From an uncultured Pelagibacteraceae bacterium (GTDB lineage Bacteria; Pseudomonadota; Alphaproteobacteria; Pelagibacterales; AG-422-B15), in NCBI GenBank assembly GCA_902584215.1, contig CACHYW010000001.1, positions 26,065 to 90,064 of the forward strand: a stretch of DNA of 64,000 nucleotides. The letters run 5' to 3'. The position numbers and the translations under genes were made by a program. This document shows positions 13,907-62,652 of this stretch, piece by piece. Below the pieces are notes generated by a model. The model searched no databases, was not told the origin of the DNA, and saw only the letters and a list, made by a program, of their open reading frames with translations. Every line of letters starts with the position of its first letter. The stretch's first letter is position 1.

Positions 13907-13917
13907 GTACTTTTATT

Positions 13918-16606: not shown

Positions 16607-16644
16607 ATTCAATAGTTTAATAATGTTTTTAGCGGCCTTTAACC

Positions 16645-16673
16645 TTGACTTTAGGCCTCTCCGTACTTACATT
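16645..16673 (+). promoter_or_regulatory. candidate sigma70 promoter for trxA
   Basis: TTGACT (16645-16650), a 17-nt spacer, TACATT (16668-16673), about 27 nt upstream of the trxA ATG. Confidence 0.3.
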
Positions 16674-16699
16674 AAATCCAATTCAAGAAAGGAATCACT

Positions 16700-21181: not shown

Positions 21182-21816
21182 ATAATATTTTTTGCTTTTT
21201 CAATAAACTCAGTAATTAATTGCTTATCTTTTATACCCTCTGAATTCTCAACACCAGAACTAACGTCAAAATAACTAGTCTTTTTAAGGTTTATAGCTGA
21301 GATTATATTGTCATTATTAAGTCCCCCTGACAGAAAAAAGTTCTTATTAATCGATAAATTCTCAATTATCTTCCAATCAAATCTATGCCCAGTTCCACCT
21401 TGAATGCCAGCTTGAGGAGGTGAGTCAAATAAGAAATATTCTACAAACGGCTCATATTTAACTAATTCATCTAAGTCATCAGAGGATGAAATTCCAATGG
21501 CCTTTATGATTTTAAAATCATACTTTAATTTAATTCTTTGGACCATTTCATGAGTTTCTTGACCATGCAATTGAATATATTGAAATCCAATCCTCAATAA
21601 ATCATCTAATAATTTATCATCTGGATTAACAGTAACTGCTACAGGTATGGTTAGATTTTTTATCTCAGATAAAATTTTTTCACAATTTTTAATATTAATG
21701 TTTCTGTGAGACTTTTTATATAAAATAAAACCTATAAAGTTTGCCCCAGCATCAATTGCATGCTGTGCAATTTCATGGTTTTTTACCCCACAAATTTTAA
21801 TTTGTATATCACTCAC
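21178..21816 (-). CDS. trpF: phosphoribosylanthranilate isomerase
   Basis: 212 aa. Motifs KICGV, QLHG, GGTG, LSGGL, DVSSGVE. Confidence 0.9.
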   Translation of the reverse strand: MSDIQIKICGVKNHEIAQHAIDAGANFIGFILYKKSHRNINIKNCEKILSEIKNLTIPVAVTVNPDDKLLDDLLRIGFQYIQLHGQETHEMVQRIKLKYDFKIIKAIGISSSDDLDELVKYEPFVEYFLFDSPPQAGIQGGTGHRFDWKIIENLSINKNFFLSGGLNNDNIISAINLKKTSYFDVSSGVENSEGIKDKQLITEFIEKAKNII

Positions 21817-22505
21817 GATATTTCTGAATAAATATTTTCAGCTGCTTTTGCAGGATCTCTAGCATCTGTTATTGGCCTGCCTATGACTAAAATATCAGCA
21901 CCAGCCTCAATAGCTTCCCTTGCTGAAAGTGTTCTTTTTTGATCATTTGATGCATTATCTTTACCTCTAATTCCTGGAGCAATTATCTGTAGATTATTTC
22001 CATGAGTATTTTTTACTTCTGAAACTTCCAGAGGACTACAAACAATTCCATCGATACCACAATTGACTGCAAGTTGAGTTAGTTGTTTAACATTCTCATT
22101 GACTGATTTTTCAATACCAATCTCTGAAATGAGCTTATCATTAAAGCTGGTCAGCATAGTTACACCGATCAATTTAGTTATACTATTAAGTTCGTTTTTT
22201 GCGTTTACACACTCAATTATCATTTCTGAGCCTCCTGAAAGGTGCAAAGTAGTATATCTTGGTTCAAATTGTAAAATATTAATAAGCGCTTGTTTTACTG
22301 TATTTGGAATATCGTATAATTTTAGATCTATAAAAATTGGTATCTCAAATTTTTTTATTTTTTCCATTCCTAAAAGACCACATGACGTAAAAAATTCTAA
22401 GCCTAATTTAATGCCCCCTACATATGGAGAAATTTGGTCTACTAATGCTAATGCCTTATCAATATCACTTGTATCGATAGCACAAAAAATAGGATTATTA
22501 GTCAA
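21813..22505 (-). CDS. pyrF: orotidine 5'-phosphate decarboxylase
   Basis: 230 aa. DxKxxD motif (FIDLKLYDIPNT) and the C-terminal VIGRPI motif. Confidence 0.9.
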   Translation of the reverse strand: MTNNPIFCAIDTSDIDKALALVDQISPYVGGIKLGLEFFTSCGLLGMEKIKKFEIPIFIDLKLYDIPNTVKQALINILQFEPRYTTLHLSGGSEMIIECVNAKNELNSITKLIGVTMLTSFNDKLISEIGIEKSVNENVKQLTQLAVNCGIDGIVCSPLEVSEVKNTHGNNLQIIAPGIRGKDNASNDQKRTLSAREAIEAGADILVIGRPITDARDPAKAAENIYSEIS

Positions 22506-22519
22506 AACAAAATTATAGG

Positions 22520-22840
22520 TTAATCGCCTTCTTCTTGTGAAACAGAGGTGTTGGTCTTTGAATTTAATTTGAGTCTTAATTCTTTTCCCGTTTTAAAACG
22601 GGGAATAAATTTTTCTTCTACCTGGACTGATTCTCCAGTTCTTGGGTTCCTTCCAGTTCTTTCTTTTCTATGTTGAACTGAAAATGCTCCAAAGCCCCTT
22701 AGCTCAACTCTTTTACCTTCTGCTAAAGATTGAGTAATTTCATTAAATATTGTATTAACTATTCTTTCTACATCTCTAATAAATAAATGAGGATTAGCTT
22801 CTGTAATATTTTGTATAAGTTTAGATTTAATTAAGCTCAT
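22520..22840 (-). CDS. ihfB: integration host factor beta subunit
   Basis: 106 aa. HU/IHF fold RGFGAFSV...[10 protein letters not shown]. The conserved cmk-rpsA-ihfB order is present. Confidence 0.85.
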
Positions 22841-22894
22841 TCAATAATTATAAGATATTAAGAGTTAATGTAAATAATTGAATGTAAAGAATAT

Positions 22895-24592
22895 TTATTC
22901 TTCTTTTTTATCTCGACCTAGCGCTTTTCCCAGAATAGCACCTAAAGATGCTCCAGAGTCTTTAGAGCCATATTTCTCCATTGCTTCTCGTTCTGTGGTT
23001 TCCTCCATCATTCGCACTGATAAACTAATTTTGTAATTTGAATGATCAATATTTGTAATGGATGCATCAAGCTTATCATTCTTAGCCCATCTTTCTGGGC
23101 GCGCGTCAGACTTTCTTAAAGCTAATTCATTTCTTTTAATAATTGAAACAGGACCCTTTTCACCAACTCGAACCTTTAATCCAAAATCACCTGTTTCTAT
23201 AACATTACAAGTTACTATATCATTTTTCTTCTTATCTTTTAATTCATCAAATGGGTTACCATCAACTTCTCTTATAGAAAGGGATACTTTATCGTTATCA
23301 TTTGTAATAATTTTAGCTTTAATGATATCACCGACCTTATAATTCTTAATCTCTTCTTTAGGATCTGCGTCCCATGATAGGTCTTTTCCAAATACTGCTC
23401 CATCTATTTCATTATCAAGATTGCAGAAGATTATACCATCCTTAATATTTGTAATACTTGTTTCCATTATGCTACCAACCGGATTGGCGTCATTGAATTT
23501 CTTCCATGGATTAGGTGATAACTGTTTAATGCCTAAACTTAATCTTCTTTTGTCATGATCAATTTCTAGTATTTGACAATCAACAGATTGCGATCTAGCG
23601 TAAAGGTTCCCTGGCTTGGAATTTTGTCTTTGGCTCCATGTGAGCATATCCTTGTGGCATAAGCCCTCGACTCCGTTTTCAATTTCTATAAAAATACCGT
23701 AATCGGTAACATTTGTTACAACTCCTTTAACCTTATCATTGACATTAAAATTTTCTTTTACCTTGAGCCATGGATCATCTTCCAGTTGCTTCATTCCAAC
23801 TGACACGCGATTTTTTTCTGGATCTACTTTTATAATTTTGACTTTTACTTGTTGATCAATTTTTAGAACTTCTGATGGATGTCCAATTCTCTTATATGTT
23901 ATATCGCTGCTGTGTAATAGTGAGTCATATCCCCCTAAATCTACAAATGCCCCATAATCAGTAATAGCTTTAATTTTTCCTTCTACAACATCTTCAAGTT
24001 TGAGTTGCAAGAACCTCTCTTCTCTAACTTCTTTATGCATTTCTTCTAATACAGCTCTTCGACTAACAACTATGTTATTTCTTTTAAGATCCATTTTTAA
24101 TATCTTAAATTTTTGAGGAACATCAATTAAATGGTTAATGTCTCGCACAGGTCTTGTATCAATCTGGCTTCCTGGTAAAAAAGCTGTTACTCCAATTTCA
24201 CAAGATAAACCTCCTTTAACTTTTCCCGTAATAACGCCTTCAATTAGTTCTCCTGCTTCAAATGATTTTTCAATTTCCGCCCAGATTTCCTTTGACTTAG
24301 CTTTGGAGCGAGAGAGTATACATTCTCCATTATGATTCTCAATTTTATCTAAATAAACGTCAATTTGATCACCAACTTCCAGTTCCTTCTGGTCTTTTCT
24401 GAATGCAAATTCTCGCTTAGGAATTCTACCTTCGACTTTTGCTCCAATATCTACTATAACAGCCTCGTCTTCGATTTCTGCGATAATGCCTTTTATAATA
24501 GTTCCCTCTTTAAGTTTTGAATTATTTATTGACTCTGCAAGGATTGAGTCAAACTCAGTTGAATTGATATTATTGATTGACTCTTGATTCAT
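22895..24592 (-). CDS. rpsA: 30S ribosomal protein S1
   Basis: 565 aa made of repeated S1 domains (G..V.G.V..I...G.FV recurring about six times). Confidence 0.95.
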   Translation of the reverse strand: MNQESINNINSTEFDSILAESINNSKLKEGTIIKGIIAEIEDEAVIVDIGAKVEGRIPKREFAFRKDQKELEVGDQIDVYLDKIENHNGECILSRSKAKSKEIWAEIEKSFEAGELIEGVITGKVKGGLSCEIGVTAFLPGSQIDTRPVRDINHLIDVPQKFKILKMDLKRNNIVVSRRAVLEEMHKEVREERFLQLKLEDVVEGKIKAITDYGAFVDLGGYDSLLHSSDITYKRIGHPSEVLKIDQQVKVKIIKVDPEKNRVSVGMKQLEDDPWLKVKENFNVNDKVKGVVTNVTDYGIFIEIENGVEGLCHKDMLTWSQRQNSKPGNLYARSQSVDCQILEIDHDKRRLSLGIKQLSPNPWKKFNDANPVGSIMETSITNIKDGIIFCNLDNEIDGAVFGKDLSWDADPKEEIKNYKVGDIIKAKIITNDNDKVSLSIREVDGNPFDELKDKKKNDIVTCNVIETGDFGLKVRVGEKGPVSIIKRNELALRKSDARPERWAKNDKLDASITNIDHSNYKISLSVRMMEETTEREAMEKYGSKDSGASLGAILGKALGRDKKEE

Positions 24593-24596
24593 AAAC

Positions 24597-25235
24597 TTAA
24601 GTATTTAAAACTATTTTATTTAAAGCATTAAAAGCCTGTTCTATATCAATATAACTGGTATCTAGCAATACTGAATTTGCGGCTGGCTTAAGCGGAGCTA
24701 TTTTTCTTGTTAAATCCTTTAAATCTCTATCATTAATTTTTCTTAAAATTGAGTTATAGCTTGCATTTATCCCATTTTTTTTGACCTGCTCATATCTTCT
24801 TCTTGCCCTTATCTTGGCATCTGCCCATAAGAATATCTTGTAATCCGCATCAGGAAAAATAACTGTCCCTATATCTCTTCCCTCAATAATTGAATATTTA
24901 CTATTCTTGTTAGTATTTTTTGGAAAATCTCTCTGGAACTTAACAAGCTTGTCCCTAATTTGTTTTTTTGATGAAATTTTTGAAGAAATATGATCAATTT
25001 GACTAGAATAAAGTTCTTTAGAACTTAATTTATTTAGGTCAATATTAGAAACACAATCCAAAATTTCTTTTGTACTATTTGGGTTGATCTTTCTTTCGAT
25101 TATTTCTAATGCAATTGCTCTGTACAGTTTTCCGCTATATAAAATTGGTGATTTGTATCTAATTGATAATTTCTTTGCAAGTGTCGTCTTTCCTACTGAG
25201 GCGGGACCATCTATCGCAATAATTTTCACCATCAA
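24597..25235 (-). CDS. cmk: cytidylate kinase
   Basis: 212 aa. P-loop IAIDGPASVGKTT, located upstream of rpsA. Confidence 0.9.
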   Translation of the reverse strand: MMVKIIAIDGPASVGKTTLAKKLSIRYKSPILYSGKLYRAIALEIIERKINPNSTKEILDCVSNIDLNKLSSKELYSSQIDHISSKISSKKQIRDKLVKFQRDFPKNTNKNSKYSIIEGRDIGTVIFPDADYKIFLWADAKIRARRRYEQVKKNGINASYNSILRKINDRDLKDLTRKIAPLKPAANSVLLDTSYIDIEQAFNALNKIVLNT

Positions 25236-26524
25236 TAAAAAGCAGATAATTTTTTTAAATGTTTTTTAAAATCAGGATAGCTTATTGATATACATGACTC
25301 ATCGTCAATAATTAATTTATCTTTATAAAGTAAATTTAATATTGAAAAAGACATAGCGATTCTATGGTCACCATATGTTTTTATTTTTTTTTGATATTTT
25401 AATTCAATTCTTTTTGTACCTTCAATTTTAATATTATCTTTTTTTTGAATTACATTAAAGCCGACCTTAGAAAGGTTAATGGTTATACTTTTAATTCTAT
25501 CACTTTCTTTGTGTCTAAGTTCAGATAAACCTTCCATAATTGTAAATCCTCTAGCTTGAGATGCTGCAATTGAAAGAATTGGATATTCATCTATCAAATA
25601 TGGAGAATACTTTGACTCAATTTTTACTCCATGAAGTAAACTATATGATACTTTAATATCTCCTACTTCTTCTCCCGAAATTGTTTTAGTTTTTTTTATT
25701 CTTATTTTACCACCCATTTTTTTTAATACATCAATAAAAGCAATCCTAGTTTTGTTTAGCGCTATATTTTTTAGAGTAATATTAGACTTTGGAATAATTA
25801 ACGCTCCCACTATAAAAAAAGCTGCACTTGATGGATCACTTGCTACAGAAATGTTTTTTGGCTTTATTTCATATGGACCATTAAGCTCAATTGATGTTGA
25901 ATTTGTATTAAGTATTTTTTTTTTATATTTTATTTTTAAGTATTTCATCAGTCTTTCAGTATGATCGCGAGTATTTTTCTTTTCAATTATTTTAGTCTTG
26001 CCTCGTAAATTGAGTGCAGATAGTATTAGGGCAGTCTTTACCTGTGCCGAAGCTTTCTGCATGATATGCTCCATTGGTAATAAATTTGTATTTCCAGTTA
26101 TATACAATGGCAAAAAGTCTTTATTTGTGAGTGTTATTTCTGCTCCCATTCTTTCTAAATATGTTGATAGTCTTGACATAGAGCGTTTACTTAATGATTT
26201 ATCGCCAATAAAGGTGCAGCTTATTGGGTTTGAAGAAACTGCCCCCATAATTAAACGTGAAGTTGTCCCACTATTTCCACAGTTAAGCACTTGTGAGGGT
26301 TGAAAATAACCCCCAGTGCCATTACCAAATACAATCCATTTGTTCTCTTTTTTGATTATTTTAATCCCTAACTCCTTAAGAATATTAAGAGTTCTTAAAA
26401 CATCATCAGACTCTAATAAATTTGAAATTGTAACTCGCCCCGTAGACAGTGATGCAAAAATCAAAGCTCTGTGTGAGATAGACTTATCTCCTGATATTTT
26501 AATTGAACCTTTTAATTTAAGCAC
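25232..26524 (-). CDS. aroA: 3-phosphoshikimate 1-carboxyvinyltransferase (EPSP synthase)
   Basis: 430 aa. KSISHRAL, CGNSGTTSRL, RHKESDRI and GDHRIAMSF motifs. Confidence 0.9.
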   Translation of the reverse strand: MLKLKGSIKISGDKSISHRALIFASLSTGRVTISNLLESDDVLRTLNILKELGIKIIKKENKWIVFGNGTGGYFQPSQVLNCGNSGTTSRLIMGAVSSNPISCTFIGDKSLSKRSMSRLSTYLERMGAEITLTNKDFLPLYITGNTNLLPMEHIMQKASAQVKTALILSALNLRGKTKIIEKKNTRDHTERLMKYLKIKYKKKILNTNSTSIELNGPYEIKPKNISVASDPSSAAFFIVGALIIPKSNITLKNIALNKTRIAFIDVLKKMGGKIRIKKTKTISGEEVGDIKVSYSLLHGVKIESKYSPYLIDEYPILSIAASQARGFTIMEGLSELRHKESDRIKSITINLSKVGFNVIQKKDNIKIEGTKRIELKYQKKIKTYGDHRIAMSFSILNLLYKDKLIIDDESCISISYPDFKKHLKKLSAFY

Positions 26525-26625
26525 TTTTATATTGTCAATTTAATAAGTAACGGTTAGTGTTAAATATTACTGTATATTTTTTAAATTGCCAAAATTTTAA
26601 CCAATTAATTATCAAGAGATCAAAT

Positions 26626-26994
26626 ATGCCAAAACCAGAGTTTGGAAAAAAAGTTATTTGTAACAATTGTGAAGCTAAATTTTATGACTTAAATCGAAAG
26701 CCTGCTACCTGTCCTCATTGCGGTACAGAATACATAGAGCCGGCAAATGAAATAATAGCTTCAACAGCTAAACAAGTATTTGTTGATGAAGTAGATACAG
26801 TAACTGATAGTAATTTGGTGGGAAGTGATGCAACTGAGTCAATAGCCGAAGTAACTGATATAGAATTGGAAGACGAATTGGATGAGGATACAATTAGCCT
26901 TGAGGATTCAGATGTAGATGATCAAGTGATTTCAAGCGATGTTGACATCGATATTGATAGCAGCGAAACAACAGAAGATATTGATAGAGATTAA
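26626..26994 (+). CDS. FYDLN_acid (TIGR02300-like) zinc-ribbon protein with an acidic tail
   Basis: MPKPEFGKKVICNNCEAKFYDLNRKPATCPHCGTEY followed by a D/E-rich tail. I prefer ATG 26626 over the track's 26557 because family members begin at this conserved motif. Confidence 0.7.
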   Translation: MPKPEFGKKVICNNCEAKFYDLNRKPATCPHCGTEYIEPANEIIASTAKQVFVDEVDTVTDSNLVGSDATESIAEVTDIELEDELDEDTISLEDSDVDDQVISSDVDIDIDSSETTEDIDRD

Positions 26995-26997
26995 ATT

Positions 26998-27073
26998 GGG
27001 GCTGTAGCTCAGCTGGGAGAGCATCAGCATGGCATGTTGAGGGTCACCGGTTCGATCCCGGTCAGCTCCACCA
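26998..27073 (+). tRNA. tRNA-Ala (anticodon GGC)
   Basis: 76 nt. Cloverleaf folded by hand: acceptor GGGGCTG/CAGCTCC with the G3:U70 Ala identity pair, D arm GCTC/GAGC, anticodon loop AT-GGC-AT, T arm ACCGG-TTCGATC-CCGGT, and an encoded CCA. Confidence 0.95.
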
Positions 27074-27826
27074 TCAAAATTTAAATGTATCTCCCAAATA
27101 GAATTTCCTTGCTTCTTTGTTGCCTAGTATTTTGTCACTTGTTCCATGGGCAATAATTTCACCACTGAAAAGAAGATAGCTGTAATCACTTATATCAAGT
27201 ACTTCTCTAACCTGATGATCGGTAATAATCACTGATATACCTTTTTGCTTAAGTCTATTAATCTCAGATTTAATATCATTAATAGAAATGGGGTCCAGTG
27301 CAGAAAATGGCTCATCAAACAAAACATAAGATGGGTTTGTACCTAATAATCTTGCGCATTCACATTTTCGCCTTTCCCCACCAGACAATTGATGAGGCAT
27401 AGCATTTCTTAAGTGTGTTAAATTAAATTCTGCTAAGAGCTCTTCAAGTCTATTTGCTCTTTGATCTAGATTAAGACTTGTGGTCTCTAAGATTGCCATT
27501 ATATTATTTTCTACACTTAAACCTCTAAAGATACTTGGTTGTTGAGGTAAATATCCTAGTCCAGCTCTAGCTCTTTTCCACATTGGAAGTAATGTAATGT
27601 CACGATTATTTAATTTGATTTCTCCACTATCGCAAACTAAAAGCCCCATAATACAATATAAAGCTGTACTTTTGCCTGCTCCATTAGGACCGAGTAAACC
27701 AATAACACTTCCCTTTTTAACTTTAATAGATATATCTCTAACAATTTGCTTTCCTGATAGAGACTTCCTCAAATTGTTTATTTCAAGGCCAGTATTTGTA
27801 GAGACCAACTTAGGTTTTGTATTCAT
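27074..27826 (-). CDS. lptB: LPS export ABC transporter ATP-binding protein
   Basis: 250 aa. Walker A GPNGAGKST, signature LSGGERR, Walker B VLFDEP. The operon context is kdsD-lptC-lptA-lptB. Confidence 0.9.
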   Translation of the reverse strand: MNTKPKLVSTNTGLEINNLRKSLSGKQIVRDISIKVKKGSVIGLLGPNGAGKSTALYCIMGLLVCDSGEIKLNNRDITLLPMWKRARAGLGYLPQQPSIFRGLSVENNIMAILETTSLNLDQRANRLEELLAEFNLTHLRNAMPHQLSGGERRKCECARLLGTNPSYVLFDEPFSALDPISINDIKSEINRLKQKGISVIITDHQVREVLDISDYSYLLFSGEIIAHGTSDKILGNKEARKFYLGDTFKF

Positions 27827-28282
27827 TTAATTAATATCTTCTGTAATTATCAATGCTTCAACTCTATTTAATGCTTTACTTTTCATAATACTTGATGAGT
27901 TTTCTAGATCCAGTATTATTTCATCACATAATATAATATTCTCATTTTGAAGCACCCTGACCCCCCCGAAAACTTGCAATAAGTTATTTATAGGATCGTA
28001 TTTGGCTCTTTCACCTTCAATTGAGAGCTCTTGTCTTAAAATTTTAACATCATACTGAGCAGTTATTTCTCTAATTTGTTTCTCATCTTTTGTTGAATAT
28101 ACAATTAATTCTTCCGACCAAATTTCTAAATTTTCTTCAATTACATAGACATTGCCAGAAAAGATGGATGTATTCTCTGTCCTTATAATCTCTAAATTAT
28201 CTGAAGTTATTGTTAATTCTTTTGTATAAGAATTTGTAGAAAACAAAAAAAATAAAAGAATAAACAATATATCTTTTAGCAT
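27827..28282 (-). CDS. lptA: LPS transport periplasmic protein LptA (OstA-like)
   Basis: 151 aa. Signal peptide plus a beta-jellyroll-like repeat sequence. It lies directly upstream of lptB. Confidence 0.65.
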   Translation of the reverse strand: MLKDILFILLFFLFSTNSYTKELTITSDNLEIIRTENTSIFSGNVYVIEENLEIWSEELIVYSTKDEKQIREITAQYDVKILRQELSIEGERAKYDPINNLLQVFGGVRVLQNENIILCDEIILDLENSSSIMKSKALNRVEALIITEDIN

Positions 28283-28285
28283 GAA

Positions 28286-28834
28286 CTACTCAATGTCATA
28301 AATCATCCTAACATTATTCTTATAAATAATATGATTAAAATTATTATGTATTATTGATTCATCAGATGTTATTATATTGTCACCTTTATTATGTTTAACA
28401 TTTTTTTTAAATTTGACTAAATCATCATTTATTGAAAATAAAGCGTAATCAGATTGAAATTTATCATCTTCATCAGTATAGAAAATAATTTCTCCATTCA
28501 GCTCTATTAGATTTTTTAATTGATTGAAGTTCCCTTCCTTAGCATTTAAATATATCCAAATACCTGACTCGGTTCTTAATTTACCTTCTACACTAAATAA
28601 TTTTAAGTCATCCTTTCTTTGAATTCCTCTCTCAGCTTTGATCTCATAAAGTCTGTTATCGAGCCCTTTTTCGGAAAATTTTGGACCATCTATTTCTATC
28701 TCCAAATCATCATTAGCTAACAAACAAAATGGAAATAAGATTAATATAATTGGTAGAATATTTATGGATTTAGAATAATTACTTATTAGTTCAGTTAACA
28801 TAGCGAACGCAATCATGAATGTGAATGATGCCAA
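28286..28834 (-). CDS. lptC: LPS export system protein LptC
   Basis: One N-terminal TM segment plus a periplasmic domain, positioned between kdsD and lptA. The true start may be an internal Met (28816 or 28801), which would shorten the overlap with kdsD. Confidence 0.55.
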   Translation of the reverse strand: MASFTFMIAFAMLTELISNYSKSINILPIILILFPFCLLANDDLEIEIDGPKFSEKGLDNRLYEIKAERGIQRKDDLKLFSVEGKLRTESGIWIYLNAKEGNFNQLKNLIELNGEIIFYTDEDDKFQSDYALFSINDDLVKFKKNVKHNKGDNIITSDESIIHNNFNHIIYKNNVRMIYDIE

Positions 28835-29756
28835 TTGGTTTTTTATCTCTTAAATTATTTACCACAAATAAACATGTAATTTTGTTACTGTTCATTTTTT
28901 GCAGTGTATTAGTTACTAATTCGTCTTTATTACTAAGTATTGGTTTCGATGACATAATTTCTCTAACACTTAAATCTAAGAGTTCTTTTTTTATTTGCCT
29001 TCTTAAATCCCCATCAGTTATTATACCAATTAGTCTATTATTTTTATTTCTTACTGCAACATGACCAAATGATTTTCTTGTCATTTCAACAATAACAGAT
29101 TTCATAGATGCATCTTCTGACACAATTGGGATTCTTTTTCCAGTGTGCATTATATCCTTTACTTGAAGCATATTTATGCCCAAGGCACCTCCAGGGTGAA
29201 TCTTCTTATAGTCTGTAAGTTTGAAATTCTTTACTTTCATTAAAGATACACATATTGCATCTCCTAAAATCAATGATAAAGTAGTCGATGTTGTTGGCGC
29301 TAACCCAATTGAACAAGCTTCTTTTGCGTCTGGAATCAATAGAGGAATATTGCACAATTTGAAAAGACTACTTTTTGCATTTGACGTAATTCCTATTACA
29401 AGAACTTTATTTTTTTTTGCAAATTCCAATAAAGATCGAAATTCTTCACTTTTACCAGAATTAGATATTATTATTAAAGCATCGCGTTTTGTAATTATTC
29501 CTAAATCACCATGACTCATGTCTGTAGGAGAACAGTATTGGGATGGGGTACCAGTTGAACTCATTGTGCTTGAAATCTTGCTTGCAATATGACCCGATTT
29601 TCCAACACCTGTTATTATTACTTTACCTTTAATTTTTGATAGCTTCTTTACAGCTTTTACAAAATCCGTATTTATTGATTTAAAAAGTTTATTCGCACCA
29701 GATATCTCGGTTTCTACTACTGATTTACCATAACTTTTAATTTTATTAAAACTCAT
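28791..29756 (-). CDS. kdsD: arabinose-5-phosphate isomerase (KdsD/KpsF; SIS plus tandem CBS)
   Basis: 321 aa. SIS motif ITGVGKSGHIA and two C-terminal CBS domains. Confidence 0.85.
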   Translation of the reverse strand: MSFNKIKSYGKSVVETEISGANKLFKSINTDFVKAVKKLSKIKGKVIITGVGKSGHIASKISSTMSSTGTPSQYCSPTDMSHGDLGIITKRDALIIISNSGKSEEFRSLLEFAKKNKVLVIGITSNAKSSLFKLCNIPLLIPDAKEACSIGLAPTTSTTLSLILGDAICVSLMKVKNFKLTDYKKIHPGGALGINMLQVKDIMHTGKRIPIVSEDASMKSVIVEMTRKSFGHVAVRNKNNRLIGIITDGDLRRQIKKELLDLSVREIMSSKPILSNKDELVTNTLQKMNSNKITCLFVVNNLRDKKPIGIIHIHDCVRYVN

Positions 29757-29764
29757 GAATAATA

Positions 29765-30376
29765 CTAACTCGAATGAGAAAAAATATCATTTTCCCAACC
29801 TCTTAAATCAAGTTCAACTCTAGTAGGTAAAAATTTAATGCAAGACTCAACTAGTTGCTCTCTATTTTGTCTTTTGAGAATTTCGTCTAGTTTTGTTTTT
29901 ATTGCATGCAAGTGTATTACGTCTGTTGCAGCATAATTAATTTGTTCTTTAGTTAATTCAGGATTAGACCAGTCACTTGATTGTTGTTTCTTCGAAATAT
30001 CTATACTTAGGAGTTCCTTACACAAATCTTTATATCCGTGGCCTTGTGAATATGTTCTAGCAATTTTCGAACTTATTTTTGTGCAATAAACATTTTTAAT
30101 CATGATGTCTAAATCATGCTTTATAGCTGCTAGGTCATGTCGAGCATAATGAAATATGAACATCTTATTGCTGTTGAGTAATTCTTTAAGATTTGGAGCA
30201 TCAAATTTTTTATCAACAAATTGAATTAAATGACAATCACCTTGACCATCATACAATTGAATAAGACACAAAGGATCCCTTTCAGGTTGTAAGCCCATCA
30301 TTTCACAATCGGCAGCAATTAGATTTGAAAATTTAATATCATCCGCCAAATCGTTTTTATGTAAAATTGTTTGCAT
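29765..30376 (-). CDS. rnd: short-form ribonuclease D / DEDDy 3'-5' exonuclease
   Basis: 203 aa. Exo motifs IAADCEM (DxE), FHYARHDL, and YAATDVIHL. Confidence 0.7.
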   Translation of the reverse strand: MQTILHKNDLADDIKFSNLIAADCEMMGLQPERDPLCLIQLYDGQGDCHLIQFVDKKFDAPNLKELLNSNKMFIFHYARHDLAAIKHDLDIMIKNVYCTKISSKIARTYSQGHGYKDLCKELLSIDISKKQQSSDWSNPELTKEQINYAATDVIHLHAIKTKLDEILKRQNREQLVESCIKFLPTRVELDLRGWENDIFSHSS

Positions 30377-32289: not shown

Positions 32290-33729
32290 ATGCTTAAATT
32301 TACTAATTTAAATCAAGAATACCCTGAAAAAAGATCCTCAGAAAATAGAAAAAAAGATTTTGGAGAAATCTATGAGAACTTTATAAAGAATACTGCTAAA
32401 GAACAGTCCAGTCGCTGTTCACAATGTGGCGTACCTTATTGCACCGTCCATTGTCCTTTGCATAATCATATTCCTGATTGGCTTAAGCTTGCGGCTGAGG
32501 ACCGACTTGAAGAGGCTTACCAAATATCTTCGAGCACAAATAATATGCCAGAGATATGTGGAAGAATTTGCCCGCAAGATCGATTATGTGAAGGAAACTG
32601 TGTTATTGAGCAATCAGGTCATGGCTCAGTCACTATTGGATCAGTAGAAAAATATCTAACCGACAATGCGTTCGAAAAGGGATGGATTAAACCGATCAAA
32701 GTTCCTGAGTACCTAGAAAAAGAAAATAGCATTGGTATCATTGGTGCGGGCCCCGCAGGTCTTGCCGCCGCCGAGGAACTAAGAAAAAGAGGTTATAAAA
32801 TTGATGTGTATGATCGCTATGACCGTGCAGGAGGGTTGCTGATTTATGGAATTCCGAATTTTAAACTTGAAAAAGATATTGTTCAAAGGAGAATGAAATA
32901 TCTTGAGGATTCAGATATTAAGATTCATCTGAATACTGAAATTGGAAAAGATATTCAATTTTCGGATCTTCAAAAAAAACATGATGCTGTTTTAATCGCA
33001 ACAGGAGTTTATAAAGCTAGAGAAATTTCTTTGGAAGGAGATACATCCGAAGTAGTTCCTGCTTTGGATTTTCTAACTGCATCAAACCGAAAAGGCTTGG
33101 GAGATAGCGTAGAGGCTTTTGATAATGGATTCCTAAACGCCAAAGGTAAGAATGTGGTTGTAATTGGTGGAGGGGATACAGCTATGGATTGCGTAAGAAC
33201 GGCTATTAGACAGGAGGCAAAATCAGTTAAGTGTCTTTATCGAAGAGATAAAGAGAATATGCCTGGCTCGGCCAGAGAAGTTAACAATGCGGAGGAAGAA
33301 GGAGTAGAATTTTTATGGCAATCTCTCCCAAAAAAAATTGAAAGCAATAATAATGGTAGCCTCTTAAATTGTATAAAAATGAAGTTAAGTGAACCAGACT
33401 CCGATGGCAGAAGAATACCTCAGGAGATAGCAGGTTCTGATTTTGAATTAGAGACCGATTTAGTAATCGCTGCTCTGGGTTTTTCTCCTGAAAATTTGCC
33501 AAAAATGTTTGAAGTCGAAGAACTTCCAGTCACTAAATGGGGTACGGTTCGTGTAGGATTTAATACCATGATGACCAGTCTTGAGGGTGTATTTGCTGCA
33601 GGAGATATCGTCAGAGGAGCTTCCCTGGTAGTTTGGGGAATCAGAGATGGGCGAGATGTAGCAAATACTATTCATGAATATATTGAAGAAAAAAATAATG
33701 CAAAAAATCTAAATTCTAAAGCATCATGA
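32290..33729 (+). CDS. gltD: glutamate synthase small (beta) subunit
   Basis: 479 aa. N-terminal Cys clusters (CSQCGVPYC..C; CGRICP..C..C) and the dinucleotide motif GAGPAGLAAA. Confidence 0.9.
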   Translation: MLKFTNLNQEYPEKRSSENRKKDFGEIYENFIKNTAKEQSSRCSQCGVPYCTVHCPLHNHIPDWLKLAAEDRLEEAYQISSSTNNMPEICGRICPQDRLCEGNCVIEQSGHGSVTIGSVEKYLTDNAFEKGWIKPIKVPEYLEKENSIGIIGAGPAGLAAAEELRKRGYKIDVYDRYDRAGGLLIYGIPNFKLEKDIVQRRMKYLEDSDIKIHLNTEIGKDIQFSDLQKKHDAVLIATGVYKAREISLEGDTSEVVPALDFLTASNRKGLGDSVEAFDNGFLNAKGKNVVVIGGGDTAMDCVRTAIRQEAKSVKCLYRRDKENMPGSAREVNNAEEEGVEFLWQSLPKKIESNNNGSLLNCIKMKLSEPDSDGRRIPQEIAGSDFELETDLVIAALGFSPENLPKMFEVEELPVTKWGTVRVGFNTMMTSLEGVFAAGDIVRGASLVVWGIRDGRDVANTIHEYIEEKNNAKNLNSKAS

Positions 33730-52273: not shown

Positions 52274-52363
52274 GGAAAGGTGGCCGAGTGGTTGAAGGCG
52301 CACGCTTGGAAAGCGTGTATGCGGGTGACCGTATCGTGGGTTCGAATCCCATCCTTTCCGCCA
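52274..52363 (+). tRNA. tRNA-Ser (anticodon GGA)
   Basis: 90 nt. Acceptor GGAAAGG/CCTTTCC, anticodon stem CACGC/GCGTG with loop TT-GGA-AA, a long variable arm, T arm GTGGG-TTCGAAT-CCCAT, and an encoded CCA. Confidence 0.95.
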
Positions 52364-52791
52364 ATTTTTTGAAAATGCTAATTGTCTAATTTATTTTCAA
52401 TGTAATCGAGCTTTGTGGTCAATTCTTCAACTTTGGATAAAATTCTTAAGATATTTAGAAAGCTTAAATAAATAATTAATATTAATAAAAAAATAAGTGA
52501 AATTAGAAGCGCATTTATCATTAAAAGAATCTATTTATAAATTAAAAGATAAAAAATACTTATTATTAATAATATTTTTATAAACCGCCTGTTATAAGTC
52601 CTACCATCCCAAGGATTAGCCATAAAACAAGCATTGCTTTTTCATCAAACTTTTTTGTACTTTCTATACCTTTAATCTGCTTTCTAGCAAATAAGGTTAG
52701 GAGCAATACAAGGACTATCAGGTATACTATTGTAAATGCCATAAGCAATTAGTGTAGCAAGTAAGAAATATTTGTATATAAAATATATGTA

Positions 52792-54122: not shown

Positions 54123-54236
54123 TTTATCGGAACAACGAAGTTCGAAAGCCTTTCGGGGAGTTTGTTCGGAGTTAGTCCGGAATTTCGGGGCGATATAGAG
54201 ACCTTTCGGGGTATTTGTAGCGCCCCGTTTTTTTTT
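54123..54236 (+). promoter_or_regulatory. structured G/C-rich 5' leader (riboswitch/attenuator-like) of the LysE-family gene
   Basis: Hairpins at 54141-54157 and 54166-54180, plus a terminator hairpin at 54186-54227. TTTCGGGG occurs three times (54151, 54183, 54204). There is no ATG on this strand anywhere in 53995-54271. Confidence 0.45.
54186..54236 (+). terminator. Rho-independent terminator
   Basis: CGGGGCG/CGCCCCG (7 G:C pairs), extended by TATAGA/TTTGTA and ACC/GGT around a 6-nt loop, followed by T9 (54228-54236). Confidence 0.7.
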
Positions 54237-54271: not shown

Positions 54272-54898
54272 ATGTTTTTAGACTTTACCCTTCTATATTT
54301 TTTTATTCCTTTGTTTTTTGTTATTTCTATAACTCCAGGTCTTTGCATGACTCTTGCTTTAACTATGGGTATTACCATTGGTCTTAAAAATACGATGAAA
54401 ATGATGGTAGGGGAACTTGTGGGTGTCTTAATTGTTGCTGGAAGTGCAGTTATTGGCGGTGGTGCAATTATTTCATCATATCCAATGACATTTCTTTTTT
54501 TTAAATATGGGGGAGGAATTTATTTAATGTTTGTTGGCTATCAAATGTTCAATTCAAGAGGGTCACTGGCATTAAACTTAGATGGAACACATTCCTTTGA
54601 AATTAATTTTTTAAAGCTAGCAAGTCAGGGCTTTATTACTGCAGTTGCAAACCCTAAGGGATGGGCTTTTTTTATTGCTATGGTACCCGCATTTATCAAT
54701 TATGACTTAGCGCTTATGCCTCAGATGTCAGCATTGGTTCTCATCATATTAATAATAGAATTCATATCTTTAATGATTTACGCAACTGGCGGACAGATGC
54801 TTGGTATTATCTTGAAGAAACAAAAAAATATTCAATCAATAAATCGTTTAGCTGGTTTACTAATGGTAGGCGTTGGGATTTGGCTAGCTCTTAGTTAG
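54272..54898 (+). CDS. LysE/RhtB-family amino-acid exporter
   Basis: About 208 aa, six TM segments, LysE-type motifs (ISITPG..., ANPKGWAFF). I prefer ATG 54272, because the track's TTG 54242 begins 5 nt after the terminator T-run (54228-54236). Confidence 0.8.
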   Translation: MFLDFTLLYFFIPLFFVISITPGLCMTLALTMGITIGLKNTMKMMVGELVGVLIVAGSAVIGGGAIISSYPMTFLFFKYGGGIYLMFVGYQMFNSRGSLALNLDGTHSFEINFLKLASQGFITAVANPKGWAFFIAMVPAFINYDLALMPQMSALVLIILIIEFISLMIYATGGQMLGIILKKQKNIQSINRLAGLLMVGVGIWLALS

Positions 54899-55630
54899 AT
54901 TCTGCTTAAAAAGCATCCCAGGTCCTTTTGTTGAGTCATTCCCTGAACCACGAAACATATGCCATATCATTGCCTGGTTTGAAGATATAACAGGTTTACT
55001 CAGTACACGCTCTGCTTCATCTATTATTTTAAATGTTTTCAAATTTGTGCATGAAATAAATACTGCATCACAATCATTTTTTCCAATTTCTAATATTGCA
55101 CGCAAACTATCTCTCTCAGATATTCTTGCCACTACCGTGTCATCTGATTCATTAAATGATTTTTCTTCTGATATGCTAAAATTATCACTCTGAAGATTTT
55201 GTTTGAGTTTCTGAGTTACAGATTGTTCATAGGGTGAAACGAATGCAATATTCTTACATCCAAAGCTATTAAGCGCTTCCTTAACCGCTCTTATGGGATC
55301 TGTTATAAAAGTATTTTTATACTGTTCATTAATTAATTTATTAATTTTTTCAGAACCAATTACTGTTGCACCTGAGGTACATGCATATCCAATGCTGTTA
55401 AAGTCAATTTTTGGAAGCAGGTCCACCGCAATCGGTAAATCATTTTCCATTTTTGCAAGATTTTCATTATTGACAGACTGGTCACACGGAATCCTTGAGT
55501 GATAAATGGCCATATTTTCATCAAGCGTGCTTCTAATTTCTTGCTCAATTGTCTCATCACTTTGCAGTACGATTAATCCAAATCTCATACTGTAATAGTT
55601 TGGATCATCTAGCTCAAAATTTGATACCAT
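54884..55630 (-). CDS. Asp/Glu racemase superfamily protein (maleate isomerase / arylmalonate decarboxylase-like)
   Basis: 248 aa. Two Cys-containing motifs at the expected positions (GYACTSG and FISCTNL). Confidence 0.7.
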   Translation of the reverse strand: MVSNFELDDPNYYSMRFGLIVLQSDETIEQEIRSTLDENMAIYHSRIPCDQSVNNENLAKMENDLPIAVDLLPKIDFNSIGYACTSGATVIGSEKINKLINEQYKNTFITDPIRAVKEALNSFGCKNIAFVSPYEQSVTQKLKQNLQSDNFSISEEKSFNESDDTVVARISERDSLRAILEIGKNDCDAVFISCTNLKTFKIIDEAERVLSKPVISSNQAMIWHMFRGSGNDSTKGPGMLFKQNLTKS

Positions 55631-55635
55631 AAAAC

Positions 55636-57145
55636 TTATCTCGCTGCTTTTAATATTACGCTTCTAGTTTCTGTAGGATCAATTACTGCATCAATCTCAA
55701 GGTGAGCTGCGGCTTCAATTGCTTTTCCTTTTTCGTACAATTGATCGACCAACTTATTAAACAGTTCTTCTTTCTTTTTTCCGTCTTTTATTTCATCAAG
55801 TTCTTTTTTGAATCCAAGCTTGATGGCACCTTCTAATCCCATCGCTCCAAATTCTCCAGTAGGCCATGCAGCTGAGTATACTGGTTGGTGAAAGCTTCCC
55901 CCTGCTAATGCTTGTGCACCCAGTCCGTAACCTTTTCTTAAAAAAATTGTGATTAAAGGTATATTTATTTGCGAACCTATTTTAAAAAGAGCAGACATTC
56001 TTCTAACTGCCCCTTCTTCTTCACTATCGGGTCCAACCATAAAACCAGGGGTATCAACAAAAGAAATGATAGGAAGATTTTGAAGATTGCAAAGCTCAAT
56101 AAAACTTGCAGCTTTATCAGCTGACTCTGAGTCTATTGCCCCCCCCCAAATGTTGGCTATCGCTCGCCATCAATCCAAACGCTTTTCCTTCAATACGTAA
56201 AAGTCCTGTTACGATACTTTTCCCATATATCTGCTTGAGTTCTATAAAAGCATCTTTATCAGAAATGATATTAATAATATTTCTGATTGGATAAGACCAC
56301 TTTCTATTTTTTGGCATAATATCTTTTAATTGAGTCTGATCTTCAACTTTCCAATCAGCTAAATTACCTTGAAAGTAAGAAAGTATTTTCTTTGCTAAAT
56401 CTGTTGCTTCAGCTTCATCTTTTGCTACTAAATCAATAACACCATTTTTTTCATTTACCTCTGATGGACCAATTTCTTTTGGACTATAGGATCCAAGACC
56501 CCCTCCCTCAATCATTGCAGGGCCTGCCATACCGATCCATGAATTTTTAGTAGCTATTCTAATATCTGCACAGCCAAATAGAGCAGCATTTCCAGCAAAG
56601 CAGAAACCATTATTTATGGCAATTCGTAAGCACCTTCCAGTGAGACTTCCCCATAGAGCAAAAGTAGGTACATGCAATCCTGCTATACTTGTATTGATGT
56701 CTGTATCGCCTGGTCTACCACCTCCACCCTCAGTAAATATAACAATAGGTAGTTTGTATTTTTTTGCTTTCTCGCAAATTCGATCAAGCTTCATATGATG
56801 AAAATAACCTTGTGTTCCTGCTAAGACGGAATAATCGTATACAATAGCAACAGCATTAGTTGACTCATTGTCTATTATATTACCATTAATTTTACAGAAA
56901 CCAGTGATAACGCCATCACCAGAAGTTTCCATCAAAAGTTCTTCTTTGTTTTTACGACTTTTTTGAGCCGCCACAGCAAATGCTCCATACTCTAGAAAGC
57001 TATCTTTATCCACTAGATCAGAAAGATTTTCTCTTGCAGTTCTTAAATTTAGTTTATGCCGTTTATTTTTTGCATTCTCTCGAAAATCATCAGTTGTCTT
57101 GTGTAGCCGTTCAATAAATTCAGCAAAGTTTTTTTTGTCTTCCAT
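55636..57145 (-). pseudogene. acyl-CoA carboxylase carboxyltransferase (beta) subunit, interrupted by a frameshift in a G9 run
   Basis: ORFs 56117..57145 and 55636..56040 are the two halves of one carboxyltransferase. Deleting one G from the G9 run (C9 on the + strand, 56139-56147) restores ...SQHLGGAIDSESADKAASFIELCNLQNLPIISFVDTPGFMVGPDSEEEG..., a conserved carboxyltransferase stretch. Confidence 0.8.
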
Positions 57146-57153
57146 ATTTAACT

Positions 57154-57684
57154 CTATAGCATTTTTCTCAATATCTTATCCTTTTGAAAAACATGATGAT
57201 ATATGACAGCACTCAAATGAATAGAAAAAAGAATTAATAGAAAATAAGCTGACAACGCGTGGATTGCATAAAATTTATCAGCGAGATCATAGTTGTAGTA
57301 ATCAATTGATGCTTTTATAATGATAAAATTGACTTCCTCACCAGATAATAAAAGTTTACTTATGCCACTTATGGTAATGATTAGTAAAGTCATATAGAAA
57401 AGACCATGCACAATTCGAGAGGCAATAATCTGAATTTTGCTCATTAATATATTATCAATGGGCTTTGTATTAATTGATTTCCATATTAATCTAAGAAGAG
57501 TTACGTAAAAAATAGTCATGCCAATGATTGTATGAATATTTTCAATAGAAAGTTTAAATTCTGAAAATTCAAGATTATCTAAATATATTCCTAAAGGCAG
57601 TTGGAACAGTAATATTACAAAAGTAATCCAGTGAAAAAGACGTGCAAGAAATCCATAAGAATTAGTGTCATTTGTAATTTTCAT
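57154..57684 (-). CDS. cytochrome b561 family protein
   Basis: 176 aa, four TM segments, with His residues in TM helices (FHWITF..., H in TM2-4) as in CybB-type proteins. Confidence 0.75.
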   Translation of the reverse strand: MKITNDTNSYGFLARLFHWITFVILLFQLPLGIYLDNLEFSEFKLSIENIHTIIGMTIFYVTLLRLIWKSINTKPIDNILMSKIQIIASRIVHGLFYMTLLIITISGISKLLLSGEEVNFIIIKASIDYYNYDLADKFYAIHALSAYFLLILFSIHLSAVIYHHVFQKDKILRKML

Positions 57685-62082: not shown

Positions 62083-62652
62083 ATGAAAAATATATTTATT
62101 TTAGTATTTATTTCAATCTGCCTAAGTTTTCCAGCACTTGCCAAACAAGATGGTGGTGGAAGCTCCGGTGGCCAAGGAAGCTCAGGAGGAAGCTCAGGAG
62201 GAAGCTCAGGAGGAAGCTCAGGAGGCAGCGCTAGTGATGGTTCATCTGGCCCAAGTGGAAATTACTCATACTCAACAGGTTTCGACGCAGAATTGAAAAG
62301 AATTCTCTTTGAAATCGAAAAAAATGAAAATTATGAGGGTGCTCTTAAAGATTTAGAAGTTTATGTTTACGAAAACCCACAAAATGCAAATGGATGGAGC
62401 TTAATAGGTTTCGCAAGCAGAAAGCTTGGTAACTATGAAGACTCAGAACTTTATTATAGTACTGGCTTAGAAATTGATCCAAACCACGATGATATTTTAG
62501 CATATCAGGGAGAACTATTTCTTGAAACAGGCAGATATGAAAAAGCACTCCTCAATCTTGAAAAATTGACTGAGATATGCGTATTTAATTGTGATGAGAA
62601 AAACGAATTAAGTGCAGCAATTTCAAAGTATGAAAGTGAAAATAACCTGTAA
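62083..62652 (+). CDS. secreted TPR-repeat protein with a Gly/Ser-rich linker
   Basis: Signal peptide MKNIFILVFISICLSFPALA, then GGGSSGGQGSSGGSSGGSSGGSSGGSAS, then TPR-like helices (GWSLIGFASRKLGNYEDSELYYSTGLEIDPNH...). Confidence 0.7.
   Translation: MKNIFILVFISICLSFPALAKQDGGGSSGGQGSSGGSSGGSSGGSSGGSASDGSSGPSGNYSYSTGFDAELKRILFEIEKNENYEGALKDLEVYVYENPQNANGWSLIGFASRKLGNYEDSELYYSTGLEIDPNHDDILAYQGELFLETGRYEKALLNLEKLTEICVFNCDEKNELSAAISKYESENNL
62176..62223 (+). repeat. perfect 12-nt tandem repeat x4 (GGAAGCTCAGGA) inside the TPR gene
   Basis: Copies at 62176, 62188, 62200 and 62212, in frame, encoding (GSSG)n. Confidence 0.9.

What the first reader, a model, noticed from the sequence alone, without database searches (positions are those of the whole stretch)
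56139..56147. Single-base frameshift inside a G9/C9 homopolymer splits an otherwise intact carboxyltransferase gene
On the coding (minus) strand the sequence reads CAT TTG GGG GGG GGC AAT AGA ... TGA. With one G fewer it reads LGGAIDSESADKAASFIELCNLQNLPIISFVDTPGFMVGP..., which joins the two ORFs seamlessly through a conserved carboxyltransferase stretch. Both halves otherwise look undamaged, with no other stops. There are four options: a homopolymer sequencing or assembly error, a very recent pseudogene, a phase-variable contingency tract, or expression rescued by transcriptional slippage or +1 ribosomal slippage on the G run. Such rescue of homopolymer frameshifts is documented for poly(A) tracts in reduced endosymbiont genomes. 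A 9-nt G/C run is itself an outlier in this AT-rich sequence.
Basis: seen in the sequence. Interest (0 to 1): 0.55.

Follow-up and report, generated by a model that had tools for sequence, protein, structure and literature searches.

The report
One-base homopolymer frameshift in SAR11 carboxyltransferase
A run of nine G's, one too many, breaks an otherwise healthy carboxyltransferase gene in a marine SAR11 (Pelagibacteraceae) genome; it is found in this assembly only and is an ordinary polymerase-slippage event, either a technical error or a very recent private mutation, not a programmed signal.

Summary
Window 56139-56147 is C9 on the + strand (G9 on the coding strand) and is the longest G/C run in the window. 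It splits a 502-codon acyl-CoA carboxylase-type carboxyltransferase gene (55636-57145, minus strand) at the conserved L-G-G-A-I-D motif. Removing one G restores a full-length protein.

The restored protein aligns end to end with about 34 intact SAR11 orthologues of 502 aa (93-96% identity) and with the CT domains of PDB 5fif and 4rcn.

The tract is private to this sequence. About 150 homologous loci are in frame and have at most seven G's there. The closest relatives read TTA GGT GGG GCA.

Both gene halves show dN/dS of about 0.1, there are no other lesions, and synteny is conserved. Old decay is therefore excluded. Conserved recoding or a contingency tract has no comparative support.

The source appears to be a single-cell-type Pelagibacteraceae assembly. 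A sister SAG is 99.8% identical elsewhere in the window.

My estimates are: in-vitro slippage or consensus error about 0.5, a genuine recent null allele in a mismatch-repair-less SAR11 cell about 0.4, and anything programmed below 0.1. Only reads or population data can separate these. Interest is low.

The parts
56139..56147 (-). G9 homopolymer (C9 on the + strand) covering the third base of Leu333 (TTG), Gly334 (GGG), Gly335 (GGG) and the first two bases of the next codon. It holds one G more than the in-frame state.
   Evidence: All 15 close relatives show exactly one extra window base here.
55636..57145 (-). The whole disrupted gene: an acyl-CoA carboxylase-type carboxyltransferase, closest to the CT domain of LCC-like single-chain carboxylases. 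It is 1510 nt as found and 1509 nt when repaired.
   Evidence: Pfam PF01039 over residues 30-500, E 1.3e-68. PDB 5fif_A at 1e-163 and 4rcn_A at 8e-163. Intact 502-aa orthologues at 93-96% identity.
56117..57145 (-). N-terminal ORF of 342 aa: native residues 1-335, then seven out-of-frame residues (GNRLRVS), then TGA at 56119-56117.
   Evidence: The exact product is recorded on a single NCBI contig of 121,031 bp.
55636..56139 (-). C-terminal remainder in the shifted frame (native residues Ala336-Arg502 plus TAA). The first ATG/GTG/TTG in this frame is only at 56040 (Met369), so residues 336-368, which include the conserved FVDTPGF stretch, would be missing from any independently started product.
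54884..55630 (-). Downstream gene, arylmalonate-decarboxylase/EutA-like (Asp/Glu racemase superfamily). It starts 5 nt after the carboxyltransferase stop and is a probable operon partner. The pair is conserved in all SAR11 loci examined.
   Evidence: Pfam PF17645 and NCBIfam TIGR02990 below cut-off. Synteny in 42 loci.
57154..57684 (-). Upstream same-strand gene, cytochrome b561 family. It ends 8 nt before the carboxyltransferase start.

Best explanation
The G9 is a non-programmed one-base expansion of a young, lineage-private G8 run (TTG GGG GGG GCA, Leu-Gly-Gly-Ala). It was produced by polymerase slippage. Most probably it arose outside the cell, during whole-genome amplification, library preparation, sequencing or consensus calling of what looks like a single-cell Pelagibacteraceae assembly.

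On this reading the organism's real gene is G8 and encodes an intact, functional 502-aa carboxyltransferase that is co-transcribed with an Amdase/EutA-like gene.

Shown here: the tract, the +1 shift, the perfect restoration with G8, the privacy of the tract, and the purifying selection on the gene. Inferred: that the slippage happened in vitro rather than in vivo, and that the source is a single-cell genome.
For: 1. The lesion is exactly +1 in the longest G/C homopolymer of the window, which is the classic site of technical indels.

2. G8 restores a gap-free alignment to 34 close orthologues of 502 aa and to solved CT domains.

3. There is no other damage. dN/dS against ten relatives is 0.08-0.12 in both halves, the same as among the relatives themselves (mean 0.088). 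The window has 15 synonymous and 10 non-synonymous private changes, a ratio similar to the other terminal branches.

4. The gene and its neighbourhood are conserved in every SAR11 locus retrieved, at three divergence levels (96%, 74% and 69% aa), so loss is not the norm.

5. All nearest relatives are AG-series single amplified genomes. A sister SAG, GCA_902539505.1, is 99.8% identical to window 12386-29952 and contains an MDA-type chimeric junction. The split products exist on only one NCBI contig.

6. The standard workflow used for such SAGs reports 3.0 indels per 100 kb on benchmark cultures, which is about two per 64-kb window (PMC9771814).
Against: The assembly is otherwise clean at homopolymers.
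- All of the roughly 40 other long runs that lie inside ORFs keep their frame (A/T of 8 or more, G/C of 6 or more).
- No other coding, frame-breaking, window-specific indel appears against 15 relatives over about 10 kb.
- There are zero gaps against the sister SAG over 20.8 kb, a stretch that includes T9, T10 and C7 runs.
- A relative's G9 in the same gene was assembled in frame.

SAR11 lacks mutS and mutL (PMC12374537). In MMR-deficient bacteria, single-base indel rates rise with homopolymer length (PMC5854121). A true in-vivo G8 to G9 change in one cell is therefore also quite plausible.

The source record could not be identified, so its single-cell origin is an inference.
Confidence: 0.5

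Rival explanations
1. The frameshift is a genuine, very recent mutation. Replication slippage expanded G8 to G9 in the sampled cell or its immediate lineage. SAR11 has no MutS/MutL to correct it. The result is a null allele of an accessory carboxyltransferase. The 342-aa N-fragment lacks most of the AccA-like C-subdomain, and no start codon allows residues 336-368 to be made. The allele has no adaptive role and would be purged or would revert.
For: The assembly shows no other homopolymer errors. SAR11 lacks mutS and mutL. In MMR-deficient bacteria, indel rates scale with run length.

Rare independent lesions of the same gene exist in short metagenome contigs. L162 has a -1 in the GGGG of the very same Gly-Gly codons, and L163 has a TCA to TAA nonsense change five codons downstream.

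The housekeeping accD is separate and intact at 18307-19161, so this carboxyltransferase is an accessory enzyme.
Against: The gene is under strong purifying selection and is intact in about 34 close and more than 40 total SAR11 loci.

The two metagenome lesions sit on short contigs of 1.2-1.7 kb, presumably assembled at low coverage (coverage for these two contigs was not retrieved), and they were found through an ascertainment that selects for breaks just upstream of Met369.

No second genome carries G9. The exact products are on one contig only, and a pattern scan of metagenome contigs found nothing.
Confidence: 0.38
2. The tract is a phase-variable contingency locus. It switches the carboxyltransferase/Amdase-like operon on and off at high frequency in the population, and selection maintains this behaviour.
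For: A G8/G9 run in an MMR-less organism would inevitably be hypermutable. G8 and G11 are ON states and G9 and G10 are OFF states.
Against: The tract is absent from all of about 150 homologous loci, where the maximum run is G7. In the closest relatives it is interrupted: TTA GGT GGG GCA in 19 loci.

The tract lies two-thirds into the gene, in an invariant Gly-Gly motif, rather than near the 5' end. The gene is a cytoplasmic metabolic enzyme and not a surface or restriction-modification function.

No length variants were found in metagenome contigs.
Confidence: 0.05
3. The gene is expressed by recoding. RNA polymerase slippage on the C9 template (-1 or +2 nt in the mRNA), or +1 ribosomal slippage of tRNA-Gly on GGG-G, restores the frame and gives full-length LGGAID protein. 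This would resemble the poly(A) rescue seen in endosymbionts.
For: A +1 re-pairing of a GGG-decoding tRNA on the G run would give exactly the native sequence (inference). Long homopolymers are known slippage sites (established knowledge, not tested here). Some low-level, unselected rescue is likely if the G9 is real.
Against: The frameshifted arrangement is not conserved in any orthologue.

There is no slow or stop codon in the A site. GGC follows, and the downstream 0-frame codons include AGA, which I take from general knowledge to be a common Arg codon in AT-rich genomes (Arg codon usage was not computed here).

The 126 nt around the site fold no better than shuffled sequence (z = 0.12).

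The documented efficient bacterial cases involve A/T runs (my own knowledge).
Confidence: 0.03
4. The gene is an old pseudogene undergoing decay.
For: The gene is split into two ORFs.
Against: There is a single lesion. There are no further stops or indels. dN/dS is about 0.1 in both halves, the divergence is equal to that of neighbouring intact genes, and synteny is conserved.
Confidence: 0.02

Closest known systems
Homopolymer indel artefacts in single-cell (MDA/WGA-X plus Illumina) genome assemblies, which annotation pipelines flag as 'frameshifted' pseudogenes
   Same: The lesion is a +1 error in the longest G/C run. The gene is otherwise perfect. It occurs in one assembly only, and the relatives are SAGs with a documented indel error rate.
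   Different: No other such error is visible in this window or against the sister SAG. The reads were not available.
Replication-slippage frameshift alleles at mononucleotide runs in mismatch-repair-deficient bacteria (mutation-accumulation studies such as PMC5854121)
   Same: It is a single-base insertion in a long homopolymer in a lineage that naturally lacks MutS/MutL.
   Different: The rate in SAR11 is unknown. Here only one sequence is available, so the event cannot be placed in vivo.
Poly-G/poly-C contingency loci of Neisseria, Haemophilus and Campylobacter (my own knowledge)
   Same: It is a G run of 8-9 inside a coding sequence whose length sets the reading frame.
   Different: The tract is not conserved in relatives, it is not 5'-proximal, the gene is a metabolic enzyme, and no length polymorphism was found.
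Poly(A) transcriptional-slippage rescue in Buchnera and Blochmannia, and programmed +1 frameshifting in prfB (my own knowledge)
   Same: A frameshift at a slippery homopolymer could in principle be bypassed to give the native protein.
   Different: This is a G run rather than an A run. There is no conservation, no stimulator and no expression data.
CT domain of long-chain acyl-CoA carboxylase (PDB 4rcn) and of the Deinococcus single-chain carboxylase (PDB 5fif)
   Same: The repaired protein aligns over about 495 residues with E values near 1e-163, including LGGAID.
   Different: Here the CT is a stand-alone 502-aa protein with no BC or BCCP domain and no BC/BCCP gene among its immediate neighbours. 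It is paired instead with an Amdase/EutA-like gene. Its substrate is unknown.

Membership tests
Acyl-CoA carboxylase carboxyltransferase (Pfam PF01039 Carboxyl_trans; LCC-like CT clade) | A full-length match to the carboxyltransferase domain covering both crotonase-like subdomains | tested here: met
   The repaired protein matches PF01039 over residues 30-500 of a 493-position model, E 1.3e-68. The ACCA-like match covers residues 339-416. 5fif_A and 4rcn_A match at about 1e-163.
Acyl-CoA carboxylase carboxyltransferase (Pfam PF01039 Carboxyl_trans; LCC-like CT clade) | An uninterrupted reading frame that encodes both subdomains | tested here: not met
   As assembled (G9), the frame breaks after Gly335 and stops seven codons later.
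Acyl-CoA carboxylase carboxyltransferase (Pfam PF01039 Carboxyl_trans; LCC-like CT clade) | A biotin carboxylase/BCCP partner, either fused or encoded nearby | tested here: inconclusive
   None is found among the ten neighbouring genes or the roughly 40 window ORFs scanned. The rest of the genome was not available.
Homopolymer sequencing/amplification/assembly error | A plus-or-minus-one lesion in a long mononucleotide run whose correction restores a perfect orthologue | tested here: met
Homopolymer sequencing/amplification/assembly error | Reads that disagree with the consensus length or are heterogeneous at the tract | not testable with these tools
   No reads were available, and the source record was not retrievable.
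Homopolymer sequencing/amplification/assembly error | Similar errors at other long homopolymers of the same assembly | tested here: not met
   About 40 other long runs inside ORFs keep their frame. There are zero gaps against the 99.8% sister over 20.8 kb.
Simple-sequence contingency (phase-variable) locus | The tract is present, with varying length, in related strains | tested here: not met
   About 150 loci have a run of seven G's or fewer, and the close relatives read GGT GGG G. No flank-matched variants were found in metagenome contigs.
Simple-sequence contingency (phase-variable) locus | Length polymorphism within one population | not testable with these tools
   This needs read-level data from the sampling site.
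Programmed recoding (transcriptional slippage or +1 ribosomal frameshift) | The frameshifted gene organisation and the slippery site are conserved among orthologues | tested here: not met
   All orthologues are single in-frame ORFs without the run.
Programmed recoding (transcriptional slippage or +1 ribosomal frameshift) | Stimulatory elements (structure, or a slow or stop codon at the A site) | tested here: not met
   The fold z-score is 0.12. The next 0-frame codon is GGC, which makes up 17% of Gly codons and is not rare.
Decaying pseudogene | Multiple lesions and relaxed selection | tested here: not met
   There is one lesion, and dN/dS is about 0.1 in both halves.

The most novel reading that the evidence does not exclude
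The G9 is real. Because SAR11 has no mismatch repair, a newly arisen G8/G9 run acts as a de-facto hypermutable ON/OFF switch for the carboxyltransferase/Amdase-like operon, with cells toggling between G8 and G9. Low-level transcriptional or ribosomal slippage would keep some enzyme in OFF cells. This would be an accidental contingency locus in a streamlined free-living oligotroph.
Probability: 0.06. Interest if true: 0.5.

Novelty: already known. Interest (0 to 1): 0.12.

Why it matters
The finding matters mainly as a quality flag. This carboxyltransferase should not be scored as lost or as a pseudogene in this genome without read support, and the repaired G8 gene should be used in pangenome or metabolic reconstructions.

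If the frameshift were real, it would be one small example of the mutational hazard that long G/C runs pose in a lineage lacking MutS/MutL. That is of modest interest and is not new in kind.

A side product is that the stand-alone LCC-like carboxyltransferase and its Amdase/EutA-like neighbour form a conserved, SAR11-specific gene pair of unknown substrate. That pair is a more worthwhile target than the frameshift itself.

Tried and rejected
1. A pattern scan of metagenome contigs for window-like flanks with any 3-10 nt filling (CAACATTTGGG N{3,10} CAATAGACTCAGA) found no hits. No same-population variants could be compared.

2. A protein-guided metagenome scan gave only three close contigs (L081-L083), all in frame with GGT GGG/GGA.

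3. Exact-product look-ups of the window's own genes to find the source record mostly failed. The cluster look-up showed that the split products exist on one NCBI contig of 121,031 bp. The trpA look-up found only the sister SAG, whose contig does not reach the locus.

4. I looked for an intact CT more than 98% identical among cluster members. The best was 96.4%.

5. Other 134-aa C-terminal products looked like recurrent splits, but most are artefacts:
   - L161 is a contig edge that begins with a Nextera adapter.
   - L164 is a contig edge.
   - L165 is a misassembly with an inverted duplicate.
   - The 226-aa and 177-aa products (L166-L174) come from scaffolds with a 100-N gap inside the gene.
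   - Only L162 (-1) and L163 (nonsense) are real-looking lesions, and they are ascertainment-biased toward this region.

6. I considered calling the Gly-Gly the biotin oxyanion hole. I rejected this because, by position, the PccB Gly419/Ala420 equivalent (recalled from my own knowledge, not retrieved here) would fall near residues 408-411 (GLGA) and not at 334-335. The role of LGGAID was not tested.

7. I considered a functional two-piece CT of the AccD/AccA type. I rejected this because the break is inside the C-subdomain, and residues 336-368 cannot be made from any ATG/GTG/TTG start.

Full report
**Observation**

On the minus strand the window reads ...GCG AGC GAT AGC CAA CAT TTG GGG GGG GGC AAT AGA CTC AGA GTC AGC TGA. 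The nine G's occupy 56147 to 56139, which is C9 on the + strand. This is the longest G/C run in the 64 kb; the next longest are two 7-mers. The iid expectation for a G/C run of 9 or more here is about 0.013.

The run separates a 342-aa ORF (56117-57145) from a 134-aa ORF (55636-56040) on the same strand. Deleting one G yields a single 502-aa ORF, adding two G's yields 503 aa, and G10 stays broken.

**What the gene is**

The repaired protein matches Pfam Carboxyl_trans over residues 30-500. Its best solved relatives are the CT domains of the Deinococcus single-chain carboxylase (5fif_A, 1e-163) and the mycobacterial long-chain acyl-CoA carboxylase (4rcn_A, 8e-163). Both align without a gap straight through HLGGAID.

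It is not the housekeeping acetyl-CoA carboxylase. An intact accD lies at 18307-19161.

The neighbourhood, in + strand order, is:
- lepA
- tRNA-Ser
- an MFS transporter
- a LysE-type exporter
- an Amdase/EutA-like gene (minus strand)
- this carboxyltransferase (minus strand)
- cytochrome b561 (minus strand)
- cytochrome c'
- UPF0047
- SelO

The Amdase/EutA-like gene starts 5 nt after the carboxyltransferase stop, so the two are probably co-transcribed. No BC/BCCP gene was seen among the ORFs scanned.

**Where it comes from**

The closest genomic loci are all Pelagibacteraceae (SAR11) single amplified genomes of the AG series. They are 93-96% identical at the protein level and 88-94% identical in DNA over about 10 kb of perfectly conserved synteny.

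A sister SAG (GCA_902539505.1, contig CACBJF010000007.1) is 99.8% identical to window 12386-29952 without a single gap. It then jumps to window 33287, which is a typical MDA chimera in the sister. I infer, but could not show, that the window is itself from a SAG of this kind.

**Comparative test of the tract**

In about 150 homologous loci from genomes and metagenomes, the Leu-Gly-Gly-Ala codons are in frame and contain at most seven consecutive G's.

The close SAR11 relatives read TTA GGT GGG GCA (19 loci) or TTA GGT GGA GCA. The window's tract therefore needs two synonymous changes (TTA to TTG and GGT to GGG) to make G8, plus one extra G. GGG is 12% of Gly codons and TTG is 13% of Leu codons in this window. 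GGG-GGG pairs occur three more times in the window, so a G8 is an occasional accident of coding for Gly-Gly.

Against all 15 close relatives, the window has exactly one extra base at this run. That is the only frame-breaking, window-specific indel in coding sequence across about 10 kb. Every other indel is intergenic, a multiple of three, or a compensated pair shared by several relatives.

**State of the gene**

dN/dS against ten relatives is 0.08-0.12, and it is the same for the parts before and after the tract. Among the relatives themselves the mean is 0.088. There are no further stops or indels. The window's private changes (15 synonymous, 10 non-synonymous) resemble those of the other terminal branches.

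The carboxyltransferase/Amdase-like pair and its flanks are conserved in every SAR11 locus at three divergence levels. The Amdase-like neighbour is absent from the SAR86, Woeseia, Luminiphilus and Polaromonas loci.

The gene has therefore been under purifying selection until essentially the present. Old decay is excluded.

**Consequence if the G9 is real**

The N-product would carry native residues 1-335 plus GNRLRVS. The shifted frame has no ATG/GTG/TTG before Met369, so residues 336-368, including the conserved FVDTPGF stretch, would be lost. The break lies inside the AccA-like C-subdomain (the Pfam ACCA match covers 339-416) and not at the AccD/AccA-type domain boundary. A working two-piece enzyme is therefore unlikely.

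**Programmed or adaptive readings**

A contingency tract or a recoding site should be conserved in relatives, and this one is not. The 126 nt around the site fold no better than shuffled sequence (z = 0.12). The next 0-frame codon (GGC) is not rare. The tract sits two-thirds into a cytoplasmic enzyme.

A +1 re-pairing of tRNA-Gly on the run, or RNA polymerase stutter, could give native protein at some low, unselected level. That is inference only.

**Artefact versus real mutation**

*For an artefact.* The lesion is the textbook +1 in the longest G/C run. It is seen in one assembly only. The relatives are SAGs, and the standard SAG workflow reports 3.0 indels per 100 kb on benchmark genomes (PMC9771814).

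*For a real event.* The assembly is otherwise clean:
- About 40 other long homopolymers inside ORFs keep their frame.
- There are no gaps against the sister over 20.8 kb, including T9, T10 and C7 runs.
- A relative's G9 in the same gene (L010, GAG GGG GGG GGA) was assembled in frame.

In addition, SAR11 lacks mutS and mutL (PMC12374537). In MMR-deficient bacteria, single-base indel rates climb with run length (PMC5854121).

Two short metagenome contigs carry other lesions close by. L162 has a -1 in the GGGG of the same codons, and L163 has a TCA to TAA change five codons downstream. However, they were found through a search that selects for breaks just upstream of Met369, and they sit on short contigs of 1.2-1.7 kb whose coverage I did not retrieve.

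Several other apparent 'truncations' turned out to be adapter-contaminated contig ends, a misassembly, or scaffolds with a 100-N gap.

I put in-vitro slippage or consensus error at about 0.5, a genuine private null allele at about 0.4, and phase variation, recoding or old decay together at about 0.1.

**Verdict**

This is a known kind of event, a homopolymer +1 frameshift, private to one assembly, in a gene that the population clearly keeps intact. Interest is low. The practical message is to treat the gene as present (G8) unless reads say otherwise.

Noticed in passing
L176:17564 (sister SAG GCA_902539505.1, CACBJF010000007.1), compared with window 12386 and 33287: The sister SAG is 99.8% identical and gap-free to window 12386-29952, then jumps to window 33287. 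The jump truncates the hydrolase (window 11659-12444) and the 479-aa gene (32290-33729). It looks like an MDA chimera in the sister; the window is intact at both points.
   Followed up: partly
L010:6639-6647 (AG-900-K14): A relative carries an in-frame G9 (GAG GGG GGG GGA, the EGGG motif) elsewhere in the same carboxyltransferase gene. Such runs therefore arise naturally from Gly-rich motifs, and the SAG pipeline can assemble them in frame.
   Followed up: partly
L162:~420-430 (JGI Ga0163179_10149473) and L163:112-114: There are two independent lesions of the orthologous gene in short metagenome contigs. One is GGTGGG-CA, a -1 frameshift in the same Gly-Gly codons. The other is a TCA to TAA nonsense codon five codons downstream. 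They could be real rare null alleles or assembly errors; contig coverage was not retrieved.
   Followed up: partly
L161:1-59; protein P0128: Public metagenome assemblies contain adapter contamination. L161 begins with a Nextera adapter (…GTCTCGTGGGCTCGGAGATGTGTATAAGAGACAG). P0128 starts with MCIRDR and ends with LSLIHISEPTRPY, which are adapter-derived peptides.
   Followed up: no
L166-L174 (METAG scaffolds): Nine independent metagenome scaffolds all carry a 100-N gap inside this gene, with gene nucleotides of about 125-735 missing to varying extents. This is a recurrent assembly break, perhaps caused by microdiversity or by similarity to paralogous carboxyltransferases.
   Followed up: no
window 54228-54236: An intergenic T9 just upstream of the LysE-type gene (54242) is one T longer than in 13 of 15 relatives. 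It is the only other window-specific single-base homopolymer length difference in the 10-kb comparison.
   Followed up: no
window 52274-52579: tRNA-Ser(GGA) at 52274-52363 is followed by a hypervariable, indel-rich intergenic stretch (52364-52579) that differs among all relatives.
   Followed up: no
window 54884-57145 and 42 SAR11 loci: A stand-alone LCC-like carboxyltransferase is followed, 5 nt later, by an arylmalonate-decarboxylase/EutA-like gene. The pair is conserved in all SAR11 loci, but the Amdase-like neighbour was not found beside the homologues in SAR86, Woeseia, Luminiphilus or Polaromonas. No BC/BCCP gene lies nearby, and the substrate is unknown.
   Followed up: partly
window 62083-62652: The TPR-repeat protein shows many in-frame (multiple-of-three) indel differences among relatives around 62100-62260.
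   Followed up: no
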